From positions 1 to 62,690 of IMG/VR virus record IMGVR_UViG_3300023296_000161: 62,690 nucleotides of DNA. One strand, given 5' to 3'. Position numbers and translations under genes: made by a program. This DNA is from a virus (lineage: Duplodnaviria; Caudoviricetes). Under the pieces are notes generated by a model, which had not been told where the DNA came from, ran no database searches, and saw nothing but the letters and a program-made list of their open reading frames with translations. Below, piece by piece: positions 30,403 through 47,206 of this stretch; the stretch's first letter is position 1; each line of letters starts with the position of its first letter.

Positions 30403-31053
30403 ATGAAACATACATATCTATACATCAAAACACATTCTTCAGGATTAAAGTATTTGGGTAAAACCGTACAAAATCCATACACATATATGGGCTCCGGCAC
30501 GCATTGGATTCGCCATTTAGATAAACATGGTATAGAACATACTACGGAAATACTATTTGAGACTAACGATAAGTTATTATTTAAGGAAACCGCACTCTAC
30601 TATAGCCACTTATATAATATAGCAGAATCCAACGAATGGGCTAATATAGTACATGAACAGGGTGATGGCGGAGACACACCCCACAGTCCAGCGTACCAAG
30701 CACACATAGCAAGCAAAAACTTTTTGTATGGCGAAAAAAATGGATTTCATGGTATGAAACACACAGATGAAACTAAACGCAAAATAAGTGAAGCAAACAG
30801 GGGTAGGGGCTTGGGCATTCCTAAGAATCACGGAGATAAACTAAAATCAGTATGGGCAGAAAAGGGTCATCCCCGTAAAGGTAAAGAGCCTTGGAACAAA
30901 GGTAAAAAAGGATCGCAATCCAGAACTCAAAATATGATGGAAAGTTATAGTATAAAAGTCATTTTTGAAGGTGTAGAATATCCGTCACTCAATGCCGCTA
31001 GTAGAGCAACAGGGTTAAGTGCCTATAAGATTAAGATAGCCACCACAAAGTAG
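30403..31053 (+). mobile_element. Free-standing GIY-YIG (Seg-like) homing endonuclease with NUMOD3 motifs
   Basis: YLYIKTH...KYLGKT, YMGSG, HTDETKRKISEA, PWNKG. Confidence 0.8.
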
Positions 31054-31309: not shown

Positions 31310-31546
31310 ATGATTATGGATGTATACCTCCACACATTCCTTGCAATGGGTGCTATTGGTGCCGCATATTATGCAGGAGGTTATTTCTCAAAGACAAATA
31401 TTAAGAATATCATCGGCTCTATGCTTGAAACCCTAGAGAAAGAGGGTTTTATTGCAACATCAATGGATAAGGATGGCGACAAAGAGTTGATTCCTATTTC
31501 AGAATTAATTGCATATGCGCTTAAAGATTCTGAAAAAAACACTTGA
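31310..31546 (+). CDS. Hypothetical protein
   Basis: AAGGA SD, N-terminal TM. Confidence 0.55.
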   Translation: MIMDVYLHTFLAMGAIGAAYYAGGYFSKTNIKNIIGSMLETLEKEGFIATSMDKDGDKELIPISELIAYALKDSEKNT

Positions 31547-31577
31547 CAAACCCTAAAAAATAGTTTATAGTTATATA

Positions 31578-32027
31578 ATGAACAGTATGCATTTATTGCC
31601 TGTGTATTATTCGACTACGAATACACGCAAGCGCAAACAGAAAAAGAAGTCGGCCTCTGTCCTAGAGGCAGAGCGTCAACACGACAAGTTTCTCAAGAAG
31701 ATGGGTATAGGCACTCGTAGCTCAGTTGGATTAGAGCAACGGCCTTCTAAGCCGTGGGTCGCAGGTTCGAGTCCTGTCGAGTGCGCCAAATCACAGACCT
31801 GTAGTTCAGTCTGGTTAGAACGGAGCGCTCATAACGCTTATGTCGCAGGTTCGAATCCTGCCGGGTCTACCAATAATGTTCTGTATGATTCTTCTATGGC
31901 AAAGAAACCAGAGAAGATTTATACTGGTATTGAGATTATAGGTATTGCACAGATGCATAAATCCAATGCAGTGCCAGTTCGGGGTAAGAAACAGGCAGAA
32001 GAGATTGCAAAGATGAGGCGAGGATGA
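31578..32027 (+). CDS. Phage protein with GIAQMHKSNAVPV motif, with two tRNA genes nested in frame
   Basis: Open frame across both tRNAs; protein-like N- and C-terminal parts; ATGA coupling to next gene. Confidence 0.65.
   Translation: MNSMHLLPVYYSTTNTRKRKQKKKSASVLEAERQHDKFLKKMGIGTRSSVGLEQRPSKPWVAGSSPVECAKSQTCSSVWLERSAHNAYVAGSNPAGSTNNVLYDSSMAKKPEKIYTGIEIIGIAQMHKSNAVPVRGKKQAEEIAKMRRG
31711..31788 (+). tRNA. tRNA-Arg(TCT)
   Basis: GCACTCG/CGAGTGC acceptor, ACGGC-CTTCTAA-GCCGT anticodon arm, GTTCGAGTC, encoded CCA. Confidence 0.93.
31795..31872 (+). tRNA. tRNA with CAT anticodon (probably Ile2/lysidine type; Met possible)
   Basis: AGACCTG/CGGGTCT acceptor, AGCG-CTCATAA-CGCT, GTTCGAATC, CCA; C4-G69 and C5-G68 pairs as in TilS substrates. 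Confidence 0.88.
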
Positions 32028-32248
32028 CCGAAGATCGCATTAAAGAACTTGAAATAGAGAATGAAAAACTCAAGAACATTCTCCGTAAAGTATTTCCAGA
32101 AAAGTCGGGACACTTCTTCATTTGTGGAGAAGCTGGTGAGAAGGATAGTTCTGGATTGCCAGATAAGATTTTTGTTTGTCCCACATACGGGCTTGATGGT
32201 TTTCAAGTATATAAAAAGGATGGCGACTATCGTGCGCCAGGATGGTAA
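32024..32248 (+). CDS. Hypothetical protein
   Basis: ORF track, ATGA overlap. Confidence 0.6.
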   Translation: MTEDRIKELEIENEKLKNILRKVFPEKSGHFFICGEAGEKDSSGLPDKIFVCPTYGLDGFQVYKKDGDYRAPGW

Positions 32249-47132: not shown

Positions 47133-47206
47133 TCCGGTATAGTATAATGGTATTACAGTAGATTTGTAATCTTCTAATGGTGGTTCGATTCCATCTACCG
47201 GAACCA
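47133..47206 (+). tRNA. tRNA-Thr(TGT)
   Basis: TCCGGTA/TACCGGA acceptor, loop TTTGTAA, GGTTCGATTCC, CCA; one mismatch in the anticodon stem. Confidence 0.8.

What the first reader, a model, noticed from the sequence alone, without database searches (positions are those of the whole stretch)
31578..32027. Two intact tRNA genes nested in frame within a protein-coding gene
Seen: tRNA-Arg(TCT) and tRNA(CAT) span 31711-31872, exactly 162 nt (54 codons), on the same strand with no stop codon. They are flanked by protein-like halves (HDKFLKKMG before; YTG...GIAQMHKSNAVPV...IAKMRR after, a motif I recall from T4-like phage proteins). Inference: one transcript serves as either mRNA or pre-tRNA, since tRNA excision destroys the message, and the tRNAs replace a variable linker.
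Basis: partly seen in the sequence, partly recalled or inferred. Interest (0 to 1): 0.78.

Follow-up and report, generated by a model that had tools for sequence, protein, structure and literature searches.

The report
tRNA genes translated inside a phage gene
Two working tRNA genes sit in frame inside a small conserved phage protein gene, and in well over a hundred related marine phages the same gene carries other tRNAs at that spot with the reading frame almost always kept open, so the tRNA DNA seems to be read both as RNA and as protein.

Summary
ORF 31578-32027 (149 aa) contains tRNA-Arg(TCT) 31711-31788 and tRNA(CAT) 31795-31872 on the same strand, in frame, with no stop.

It is not a chance ORF. 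Both halves belong to one small phage protein family (phrog_27048) whose tRNA-free members are contiguous proteins of 111-145 aa.

In three DNA scans, each anchored on one half only, the frame ran through the tRNA block into the other half in 79 of 80 loci, 69 of 70 evaluable loci, and 21 of 21 tRNA-bearing loci. One exception lacks the C-half and one is a frameshifted tRNA chimera.

There are 128 unique tRNA-bearing ORFs in 16 tRNA combinations. The two other frames of the same blocks carry 140 and 335 stops.

The flanks evolve as protein (pN/pS 0.25 and 0.16). The tRNA blocks evolve as RNA, with compensatory pair changes and no codon periodicity.

Structure models place the tRNA-coded residues in a disordered linker.

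Best reading: one transcript is both mRNA and tRNA precursor. Eight literature searches found no description.

The parts
31543..31571 (+). Sigma-70-type promoter-like site, TTGACA-17 nt-TATAGT. Its -10 box ends 6 nt before the ATG, which is the geometry of a leaderless or nearly leaderless mRNA.
   Evidence: One search gives 11 of 12 consensus matches, though the 2-kb region had 11 promoter-like sites against 6.2 +/- 2.6 in shuffles. The same box, with a 6-7 nt gap to the ATG, is kept in 50 of 102 unique upstream contexts of the tRNA-bearing clade. The transcription start itself is inferred.
31578..32027 (+). Full open reading frame, 149 aa, of a phrog_27048-type small phage protein. A second in-frame ATG lies at 31587.
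   Evidence: The profile of 53 family members matches 31581-32024 with E 4.7e-41 and no stops inside.
31578..31710 (+). N-half: M..MHLLPVYYSTTNTRKRKQKKK basic segment followed by a helix (..EAERQHDKFLKKMG).
   Evidence: Protein-type evolution: differences per site at codon positions 1/2/3 are 0.167/0.110/0.371 and pN/pS is 0.25 over 44 unique sequences. A helix at residues 26-41 has pLDDT 88-92.
31711..31788 (+). tRNA-Arg(TCT), 78 nt with encoded CCA, read in the ORF frame as GTRSSVGLEQRPSKPWVAGSSPVECA.
   Evidence: 69.9 bits. Across 25 distinct relatives 99.8% of cells are paired and 5 of 21 pairs show changes on both sides. There is no codon periodicity and pN/pS is 1.62.
31789..31794 (+). 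6-nt spacer between the two tRNAs (two codons).
31795..31872 (+). tRNA with anticodon CAT, called Met by ARAGORN. Whether it is elongator Met or Ile2 was not settled. 78 nt with encoded CCA.
   Evidence: 68.3 bits.
31873..31919 (+). Remainder of the linker (..NNVLYDSSMAKKPEKI). It holds an internal ATG at 31896 with no Shine-Dalgarno motif before it.
   Evidence: sequence read directly. The same ..YDPSMAKK.. segment occurs in the tRNA-free relative L238. The Met is present in 105 of 128 unique ORFs and is S, A, C or G in the other 23.
31920..32027 (+). Conserved C-terminal domain YTG..IGIAQMHKSNAVPV..A..IAKMRRG plus the stop codon. The stop overlaps the next gene's ATG (ATGA at 32024-32027).
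   Evidence: Nearly invariant columns. pN/pS is 0.16 and codon-position differences are 0.132/0.078/0.450 over 41 unique sequences. A hairpin at 122-125/131-134 and a helix at 137-145 have pLDDT about 78-81.
32024..32248 (+). Downstream 74-aa gene of unknown function that starts within the ORF's stop codon.
   Evidence: No Pfam or PHROG match.

Best explanation
The ORF is a real gene for a small phage protein. It has a basic N-terminal segment plus helix, a disordered linker, and a conserved C-terminal hairpin plus helix. Its biochemical function is unknown.

In one clade of marine T4-like myophages (relatives of pelagimyophages and of Methylophilales phage Melnitz), the DNA coding for the linker has become the place where the phage keeps its tRNA genes. 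The gene's own promoter makes one transcript. Ribosomes that start at its 5' AUG read straight through the tRNA sequences. These sequences contribute about 26 residues per tRNA of unstructured linker, and the result is the full-length protein.

RNase P and 3' processing of the same transcripts release the mature tRNAs and thereby cut the message. So each RNA molecule ends as message, as tRNA precursor, or first one and then the other. Selection therefore allows any tRNA at this site, on condition that the block keeps the frame and has no stop in it.

Shown here: the anatomy, the homology of both halves to uninterrupted proteins, frame preservation across many tRNA contents, protein-type selection on the flanks, and RNA-type selection on the tRNAs.

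Inferred: that both products are made from one transcript, the leaderless start, and any regulatory use of the competition.
For: - **One family, both halves.** phrog_27048 matches residues 3-148 to profile positions 2-127 at E 6e-13. The family profile matches the window at E 4.7e-41. Uninterrupted homologues were read.
- **An isolate with another tRNA.** Melnitz gp124 (147 aa) has tRNA-Trp nested in frame.
- **Scan anchored on the N-half only.** 79 of 80 loci continue in frame into a C-half. 0 of the 76 tRNA-bearing loci has a stop in the block.
- **Scan anchored on the C-half only (metagenomes).** 69 of 70 evaluable loci are intact; 10 more were cut by contig ends.
- **Scan anchored on the C-terminal motif (IMG/VR).** All 21 tRNA-bearing loci are intact. 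75 of 80 loci are full length and 5 are cut by contig ends.
- **Diversity.** 128 unique tRNA-bearing ORFs fall into 16 combinations of Arg, Met, Pro, Ala, Thr, Trp, Leu and a 96-nt tRNA. Three further combinations were seen only as proteins.
- **Other frames.** They hold 140 and 335 stops over 15,263 nt.
- **Control tRNA sites.** Of 7 tRNA sites outside this gene in the same loci, 5 are closed in all three frames.
- **Selection.** pN/pS is 0.25 for the N-half and 0.16 for the C-half, against 1.62, 0.75 and 0.88 for the Arg, Pro and Ala blocks.
- **tRNAs under structural selection.** For Pro, 99.4% of cells are paired and 14 of 21 pairs are compensatory, exceeded by 0 of 500 shuffles. For Arg, 99.8% are paired and 5 of 21 are compensatory.
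- **Decayed tRNA still in frame.** A decayed tRNA-Pro in L020 keeps the frame through a +3-nt change.
- **Translation starts differ but exist.** Of 102 unique upstream contexts, 50 are promoter-abutted, 28 have a Shine-Dalgarno-like motif, 8 overlap the previous stop and 16 are other.
- **Structure.** The tRNA-coded residues are low-confidence coil between confident terminal elements.
Against: - No expression data of any kind were obtained.
- Broken or altered forms exist at low frequency. L235 is a Met/Pro chimeric tRNA with a frameshift. L115 lacks the C-half.
- 5 of 38 short database proteins (P0150, P0155, P0156, P0157, P0159) show the C-half joined to an out-of-frame N-terminus. I could not fetch their DNA. 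They may be indel errors of long-read assemblies, but that is a guess.
The counts are therefore samples.
- Many loci are close relatives, so they are not independent events. The tree-based count of at least 50 changes rests on about 240 nt and is rough.
- The protein's function is unknown: Pfam, NCBIfam, PDB sequence search, Foldseek and the ESM Atlas gave nothing.
- The promoter is a consensus match in an AT-rich region where such matches are common.
Confidence: 0.8

Rival explanations
1. The frame is kept open by selection, but not to make a working full-length protein. Ribosomes must travel through the tRNA block for another reason. One possibility is to reach the C-half and the overlapping downstream gene (ATGA) on a transcript with only a 5' leaderless start. 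Another is to delay tRNA folding. The functional products would then be the tRNAs and perhaps only one half of the protein.
For: The stop codon overlaps the next gene's ATG. 50 of 102 upstream contexts have the promoter abutting the ATG with no room for a ribosome-binding site. The tRNA-coded peptide itself is unconstrained. L115 survives without a C-half.
Against: Both halves are under protein-level purifying selection in the tRNA-bearing lineages (pN/pS 0.25 and 0.16). Both are homologous to the two ends of uninterrupted proteins. The N-half has no stop of its own in any of the 128 unique ORFs. In 23 of 128 ORFs the C-half has no Met to start from. So the only way to make either half as a normal terminated protein is the full-length product.
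Confidence: 0.1
2. The tRNAs are removed from the RNA and the flanks are rejoined, or ribosomes hop over the block as in T4 gene 60. In either case the protein lacks the tRNA-coded residues.
For: T4-like phages are known from established literature (recalled, not tested here) to carry RNA ligases and to use translational bypass in gene 60. The block is always a whole number of codons.
Against: Splicing or bypass would not require the inside of the block to be free of stops in the ORF frame. Yet it is stop-free in all 128 unique ORFs, while the other frames carry 140 and 335 stops. The same tRNA types outside the gene have stops in all frames (L199 and L027). Partly deleted and decayed tRNAs (L019, L095, L020) still keep the frame. 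No take-off or landing features were looked for.
Confidence: 0.03
3. Chance or annotation artefact. Two separate small genes flank a tRNA pair, and one of three frames happens to be open through it.
For: A single 54-codon stretch can be open by chance, and for each tRNA one frame in three is open anyway. Pipelines that mask tRNAs do call the C-half as a separate 43-aa or 48-aa protein. 20 of 38 short hits are of this kind, mostly JGI calls.
Against: The N-half never ends in a stop. The halves are in phase in 79 of 80 and 69 of 70 half-anchored loci and across 16 tRNA combinations. No Shine-Dalgarno motif precedes the internal ATG. Homologues without tRNAs are single proteins.
Confidence: 0.02
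4. The tRNA-like stretches are no longer working tRNAs. They are relics kept only as coding sequence.
For: At least one such relic exists: L020/L164 has a tRNA-Pro with a disrupted anticodon region that ARAGORN no longer calls. The tRNA at the Arg position in L120-122 looks degenerate.
Against: The window's two tRNAs score about 70 bits. The stems are kept by compensatory changes that alter the encoded amino acids: 14 of 21 pairs for Pro and 5 of 21 for Arg. The blocks show no third-position excess. CCA ends and anticodon loops are invariant.
Confidence: 0.03

Closest known systems
phrog_27048 / Delftia phage PhiW-14 gp114-type hypothetical proteins (also Acidovorax phage ACP17, Phage C48C1, Synechococcus phage BUCT-ZZ01)
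   Same: Same protein family: a basic N-terminal segment, a helix, a variable linker with a ..PS.. motif, and the C-terminal YTG..GI..MHKSNAVPV..MRR domain.
   Different: Those genes are uninterrupted, 111-135 aa, with no tRNA inside. The window's gene has 162 nt of tRNA in the linker.
Methylophilales phage Melnitz gene 124 with tRNA-Trp (gene 125)
   Same: It is the only cultured-phage example found. It has the same N-half, a divergent C-half, and a tRNA nested in frame in the same gene.
   Different: One tRNA of another identity at another linker position. The passages of the Melnitz paper I read list gene 125 as a tRNA but do not comment on the nesting (PMC9004378, 'find' passages only).
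tRNA-mRNA co-transcripts: T4 tRNA cluster, E. coli tRNA-tufB operon, mitochondrial tRNA punctuation (recalled textbook cases, not tested here)
   Same: tRNAs and messages are cut from one primary transcript by RNase P and 3' nucleases. The short 5-9 nt spacers between paired tRNAs resemble T4 dimeric precursors.
   Different: In those cases the tRNAs lie between reading frames. Here they lie inside one and are read as codons, so tRNA release cuts the message rather than freeing it.
Mycobacteriophage Fionnbharth gene 37 overlapped at its 3' end by tRNA-Lys
   Same: A phage tRNA gene overlaps a protein gene on the same strand and adds residues to the protein, 18 aa (PMC10865867, one passage read).
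   Different: That is a terminal overlap that only extends the C-terminus. No conserved protein domain lies downstream of the tRNA, and no series of interchangeable tRNAs is known there.
tmRNA and dual-function small RNAs (recalled)
   Same: One RNA serves both as a structured functional RNA and as a template for translation.
   Different: In those RNAs the coding part and the structured part are largely separate segments. Here complete canonical tRNAs are themselves the codons. ARAGORN finds no tmRNA in the window.

Membership tests
phrog_27048 (small phage protein, function unknown) | Significant full-length match to the family profile | tested here: met
   E 6e-13, residues 3-148 on profile positions 2-127 of 127. 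PhiW-14 gp114 scores 7.2e-68 on the same profile.
phrog_27048 (small phage protein, function unknown) | Conserved C-terminal YTG..G(I)..HKSNAVP..A..MRR columns and N-terminal basic patch | tested here: met
   The invariant or nearly invariant columns Y115, T116, G117, G122, I123, H127-P133, A140 and M146-R148 are all present in the window protein.
Canonical tRNA (Rfam RF00005) | Score above the curated gathering threshold with a full cloverleaf | tested here: met
   69.9 and 68.3 bits against 29, model positions 1-71 of 71. ARAGORN calls both.
Canonical tRNA (Rfam RF00005) | Stems maintained by compensatory substitutions among relatives | tested here: met
   Arg: 5 of 21 pairs with changes on both sides and 99.8% of cells paired. 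Pro, in relatives: 14 of 21 pairs and 99.4% paired. For Met only 3 to 5 distinct copies were available, so it was not counted.
Canonical tRNA (Rfam RF00005) | Matured and aminoacylated in the infected cell | not testable with these tools
Split gene / two independent small genes | The upstream piece ends in its own stop and the downstream piece has its own start and ribosome-binding site | tested here: not met
   There is no stop before 32025. The internal Met is absent in 23 of 128 unique relatives. No Shine-Dalgarno motif precedes 31896.
Leaderless mRNA | Transcription starts at or within a few nt of the A of the start codon | tested here: inconclusive
   The promoter-like -10 box ends 6-7 nt before the ATG in 50 of 102 unique upstream contexts. 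The start site itself was not measured.
tmRNA | tRNA-like domain plus a separate tag-peptide reading frame | tested here: not met
   ARAGORN, which searches for tmRNA, reports none in the window. The two elements here are complete tRNAs with anticodons.

The most novel reading that the evidence does not exclude
The linker of this gene is a dedicated, frame-filtered tRNA expression site. The phage clade keeps nearly all of its local tRNA genes inside one translated reading frame, and only 3 of 169 loci had further tRNAs in the flanks. The clade swaps tRNAs in and out as cassettes by recombination between conserved tRNA arms. The competition between ribosomes starting on a leaderless 5' AUG and RNase P cutting the same RNA would act as a switch. 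That switch would tie tRNA supply and the amount of this protein to the cell's translational state. Decayed tRNAs are then retained as ordinary protein-coding linker, so tRNA genes become a source of new protein sequence.
Probability: 0.3. Interest if true: 0.92.

Novelty: new variant of a known kind. Interest (0 to 1): 0.85.

Why it matters
- **A rare kind of dual coding.** To my knowledge, and in the eight library searches made here, complete working tRNA genes lying in frame inside a conserved protein gene and read as codons have not been described. One paper that turned up treats translation of tRNA sequence as a thought experiment to be tried with synthetic peptides (PMC9178612; only the start of the abstract was seen).
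- **Two layers of selection on one sequence.** RNA structure decides the bases, and the reading frame only demands no stop and a length divisible by three. This can be measured cleanly across more than a hundred lineages.
- **A natural system for a mechanistic question.** It allows study of how translation and tRNA processing compete on one RNA.
- **Acquisition and reuse of tRNAs.** It shows one way phages acquire and exchange tRNAs, and one way a dead tRNA can turn into protein sequence.
- **Annotation.** It exposes a blind spot. Pipelines that forbid coding sequences from overlapping tRNAs split or drop this gene, and many 43-aa and 48-aa 'proteins' in public sets are its C-half alone.

Tried and rejected
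**Function of the protein.** Nothing usable came from any search:
- Pfam
- NCBIfam (one irrelevant hit at E 0.034)
- PDB sequence profile search (best E 0.49)
- Foldseek against PDB (3 matches, all E above 7)
- ESM Atlas

**Other checks that led nowhere.**
- Nucleotide search of the region against 50,697 phage records found only the tRNA-Arg itself in other phages. There was no close relative of the locus.
- tblastn with the whole ORF mostly returned translated tRNAs of unrelated phages. I dropped these as uninformative.
- I looked for a TilS gene, to decide whether the CAT tRNA is Ile2. None is in the window, which is only about 40% of a genome, so this says nothing.
- Folding the whole ORF RNA added nothing (z = -1.68).
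- My regular expressions twice under-called intact loci. In one search, loci were flagged 'NO_C' because of MHKSNSV- and AYNKG-type C-halves. In one search, loci were flagged 'NO_N' because of N-terminal variants. I re-read those rows by eye and with looser patterns.
- I considered an autoregulatory loop through AGA codons read by the nested tRNA-Arg. I rejected it because the ORF has no AGA codon (read).

**Literature.** Eight searches and passages of four papers gave no description of in-frame nested tRNAs. The library lacks most subscription journals, and supplements were closed. The Melnitz paper's Table S2 and gene tables could bear on this.
Full report
**What is there.** ARAGORN places tRNA-Arg(tct) at 31711-31788 and a tRNA with anticodon CAT at 31795-31872, both on the + strand. 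Rfam's tRNA model scores them 69.9 and 68.3 bits against a threshold of 29. Both carry an encoded CCA end. One reading frame, 31578-32027 (149 aa), runs through both without a stop. A TTGACA-17-TATAGT promoter-like site ends 6 nt before the ATG. The stop codon overlaps the ATG of the next gene. The window is a whole IMG/VR virus record of 62,690 nt, estimated 40% complete. It carries T4-type genes such as a gp59-like helicase loader, and also ThyX.

**Are the two halves one protein?** Yes.
- PHROG family phrog_27048 (127 positions, function unknown) matches residues 3-148 end to end at E 6e-13.
- The C-half alone finds the C-termini of annotated single proteins in four phages: Delftia phage PhiW-14 (gp114, 131 aa), Acidovorax phage ACP17, Phage C48C1 and Synechococcus phage BUCT-ZZ01.
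- The N-half alone finds the N-terminus of Methylophilales phage Melnitz gp124.
- Melnitz gp124 (147 aa) itself contains a tRNA-Trp in frame.
- Their lengths fall in steps that correspond to no, one, two or three tRNAs.

**Is the open frame selected, or am I seeing only the open cases?** Protein databases hold only called ORFs, so I went to DNA and anchored each scan on one half alone.
- *IMG/VR, C-terminal motif.* Of the 80 loci kept, 75 are full-length genes and 5 are cut by contig ends. 21 carry nested tRNAs, and all 21 are intact.
- *IMG/VR, N-half patterns only.* 79 of 80 loci run in the same frame into a recognisable C-half. 76 of the 80 carry tRNAs, and none has a stop or frameshift in the tRNA block. 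The exception, L115, has the C-half deleted and reads into other sequence.
- *Metagenome contigs, C-half only.* 10 of 80 loci are cut at the 5' side. 69 of the remaining 70 are intact back to the N-terminal motif. The exception, L235, has a tRNA-Met 5' part fused at the T-loop to a tRNA-Pro 3' part, which shifts the frame. It lies on a 1,433-nt contig and could be an assembly chimera.

Pooled, there are 170 full ORFs of the tRNA clade, of which 132 are unique sequences. 128 of these carry tRNAs, in 16 combinations: Arg, Arg+Pro, Pro, Ala+Pro, Arg+'Ile'+Pro, Ala, Arg+Met, Thr, Trp, Arg+Ala, Leu, Ala+Thr, 'Ile', Pro+Thr, 'Ile'+Pro and Met.

Over 15,263 nt of tRNA block, the other two frames hold 140 and 335 stops. 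Both are closed in 89 of 128 ORFs and one is closed in the other 39. The zero in the ORF frame is by construction in that pooled set. The unbiased figures are the anchored counts above.

Seven tRNA sites outside this gene in the same loci serve as a control. Five are closed in all three frames, including Arg(tct)-containing blocks in L199 and L027. The other two have one open frame each.

A FastTree tree of the flanks needs at least 50 changes of tRNA content. It rests on about 240 nt and is only a rough guide.

**What kind of selection acts where?**

| Region | Unique sequences | Differences per site at codon positions 1/2/3 | pN/pS |
|---|---|---|---|
| N-half (44 codons) | 44 | 0.167 / 0.110 / 0.371 | 0.25 |
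| C-half (34 codons) | 41 | 0.132 / 0.078 / 0.450 | 0.16 |
| tRNA-Arg block | 25 | 0.120 / 0.059 / 0.042 | 1.62 |
| tRNA-Pro block | 17 | 0.180 / 0.158 / 0.188 | 0.75 |
| tRNA-Ala block | 9 | 0.190 / 0.150 / 0.160 | 0.88 |

Both flanks behave as coding sequence under purifying selection. The tRNA blocks, read in the ORF frame, show no third-position excess. Instead they keep their stems:
- tRNA-Pro: 99.4% of cells paired, 14 of 21 pairs changed on both sides, reached by 0 of 500 shuffles, and far above slid controls.
- tRNA-Arg: 99.8% of cells paired, 5 of 21 pairs changed on both sides.

So the bases are chosen by the tRNA, and the frame only demands openness. Each tRNA type is read in one phase throughout. 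A decayed tRNA-Pro in L020/L164, no longer called by ARAGORN, differs by a 3-nt gain in the anticodon region and still keeps the frame. Remnants of a tRNA-Pro 3' end persist in frame after tRNA-Ala in L019 and L095.

**Could the halves be made separately?**
- The N-half has no stop of its own.
- The Met at 31896 has no Shine-Dalgarno motif before it.
- That Met is replaced by S, A, C or G in 23 of 128 unique ORFs.
- The ..YDPSMAKK.. segment also occurs in the tRNA-free relative L238, so it is part of the old linker rather than a new start.
- A search for shorter database proteins gave 38 hits:
  - 20 are the C-half alone (43 or 48 aa, mostly JGI calls, whose pipeline I believe masks tRNAs; that belief is recalled).
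  - 4 start inside the tRNA-coded part, in frame.
  - 5 are N-half pieces.
  - 1 is an in-frame deletion.
  - 3 have foreign N-termini.
  - 5 (P0150, P0155, P0156, P0157, P0159) have an out-of-frame N-terminus.
- Those last five count against a perfect record. I could not fetch their DNA. All are from ENA assemblies, on contigs of 11.7 to 182.6 kb, and two also lose the C-terminal MRR. That looks like indel error, but this is a guess.

**Where in the protein do the tRNAs sit?**
- AlphaFold2 on a tRNA-free homologue (L030, 53-row alignment) gives helix 21-43 (pLDDT about 90), a short helix 50-57, coil to 105, a hairpin at 106-118 and helix 121-132. Mean pLDDT is 73.9 and pTM 0.33.
- The window protein (47 rows) gives helix 26-41 (pLDDT 88-92). 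pLDDT is 44-49 over residues 51-90, which lie within the tRNA-coded stretch (about 45-98). It also gives a hairpin at 122-134 and helix 137-145 with pLDDT 78-81.
- The tRNAs therefore occupy the disordered linker, directly after the helix that ends ..KFLKKMG.

**Translation start.**
- Among 102 unique upstream contexts of the clade, 50 have the promoter-like box with its -10 element 6-7 nt before the ATG. That is the geometry of a leaderless message.
- 28 have a GGAG-type motif, 8 overlap the previous gene's stop (TAATG or TGATG), and 16 are other.
- Different lineages thus provide for translation of this frame in different ordinary ways, which fits a real gene. The start site itself is inferred.

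**Mechanism proposed.** One transcript serves two uses. Ribosomes read through the tRNA sequences and make a protein whose linker is tRNA-coded. RNase P and 3' trimming release the tRNAs and cut the message. The N-half fragment left by RNase P would lack a stop codon. Melnitz is reported to encode its own tmRNA (PMC9004378, abstract), which may or may not be connected.

In this clade further tRNAs in the flanks are rare (3 of 169 loci). tRNA-free family members rarely have tRNAs nearby (3 of 62 loci). So the linker seems to have become the tRNA site of these phages, rather than the gene merely lying beside a tRNA cluster. The L235 chimera shows that recombination between conserved T-loops happens, which suggests how cassettes are exchanged.

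**Comparison with what is known.** It works like a tRNA-mRNA co-transcript (T4 tRNA cluster, tufB operon, mitochondrial punctuation; recalled), but with the tRNAs inside the frame. The nearest printed case I found is mycobacteriophage Fionnbharth. There a tRNA-Lys overlaps the 3' end of gene 37 and extends it by 18 aa (PMC10865867, one passage). The Melnitz paper lists gene 125 as a tRNA without remarking, in the passages I saw, that it lies within gene 124. Eight searches of the held library found nothing on in-frame nested tRNAs. The library is incomplete and supplements were closed.

**Verdict.** I rate it a new variant of known dual-use RNA arrangements, with high interest.

Noticed in passing
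window 30403-31050 (+): A homing-endonuclease-like ORF (phrog_314 at E 2.2e-18; Pfam NUMOD3) lies about 500 nt upstream of the tRNA-bearing gene. This recalls SegB in the T4 tRNA cluster (PMC2330249, listing only). It could promote exchange of the tRNA cassette between co-infecting phages.
   Followed up: partly
L020 591-977 (same contig as L164): A tRNA-Pro relic that ARAGORN no longer calls. Its anticodon region is rewritten with a net gain of 3 nt and it is still read in frame as linker. It looks like a tRNA gene turning into plain coding sequence.
   Followed up: partly
L235 183-629: The only frameshifted locus. The 5' part of tRNA-Met is fused at the T-loop to the 3' end of tRNA-Pro, as if by deletion in an Arg+Met+Pro gene. 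The contig is 1,433 nt, so it may be an assembly chimera.
   Followed up: partly
L115 1501-1860: The N-half plus tRNA-Arg read in frame into a coiled-coil-like sequence instead of the C-half. The C-half has been deleted in this one phage.
   Followed up: no
L021 3149-3244; also L189, L197, L202, L225: A 94-96 nt tRNA with a long variable arm and a 6-bp anticodon stem, which ARAGORN labels Ile(tat). Its true identity is unclear. It too is nested in frame.
   Followed up: no
L120-L122, about 1633-1711: At the usual tRNA-Arg position sits a diverged copy with anticodon TGT and weakened stems. It may be an anticodon-switched or decaying derivative of the Arg tRNA.
   Followed up: no
L167, L172, L175, L183 (between the N-half and tRNA-Pro): A further stretch translating as ..GGSGRANAS..GSIP.. 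has a T-arm-like signature, but ARAGORN does not call it. It may be another unusual or degenerate tRNA.
   Followed up: no
proteins P0131-P0154: Public gene sets hold many 43-aa and 48-aa 'proteins' that are just the C-half of this gene. Pipelines that bar overlaps with tRNAs appear to split it.
   Followed up: partly
window 47133-47206 (+): The third tRNA (Thr, tgt) sits in an ordinary intergenic gap between a small ORF that follows a gp59-like gene and ThyX. It has stops in all three frames.
   Followed up: yes
window 31795-31872: The CAT tRNA has an A1-U72 pair and C4-G69/C5-G68 pairs. From memory these pairs are lysidine-synthetase determinants, so it may be an AUA-reading Ile2 tRNA rather than Met. 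No TilS gene is in the window, which is only part of a genome.
   Followed up: partly
protein P0009 (236 aa, 1,026-nt contig): In one relative the usual ..MRRG end reads ..MRRWW and the frame continues into a coiled-coil-like segment, ending with a repeat of ..EVAKMRRWW. This may be an assembly artefact or a fusion with the next gene.
   Followed up: no
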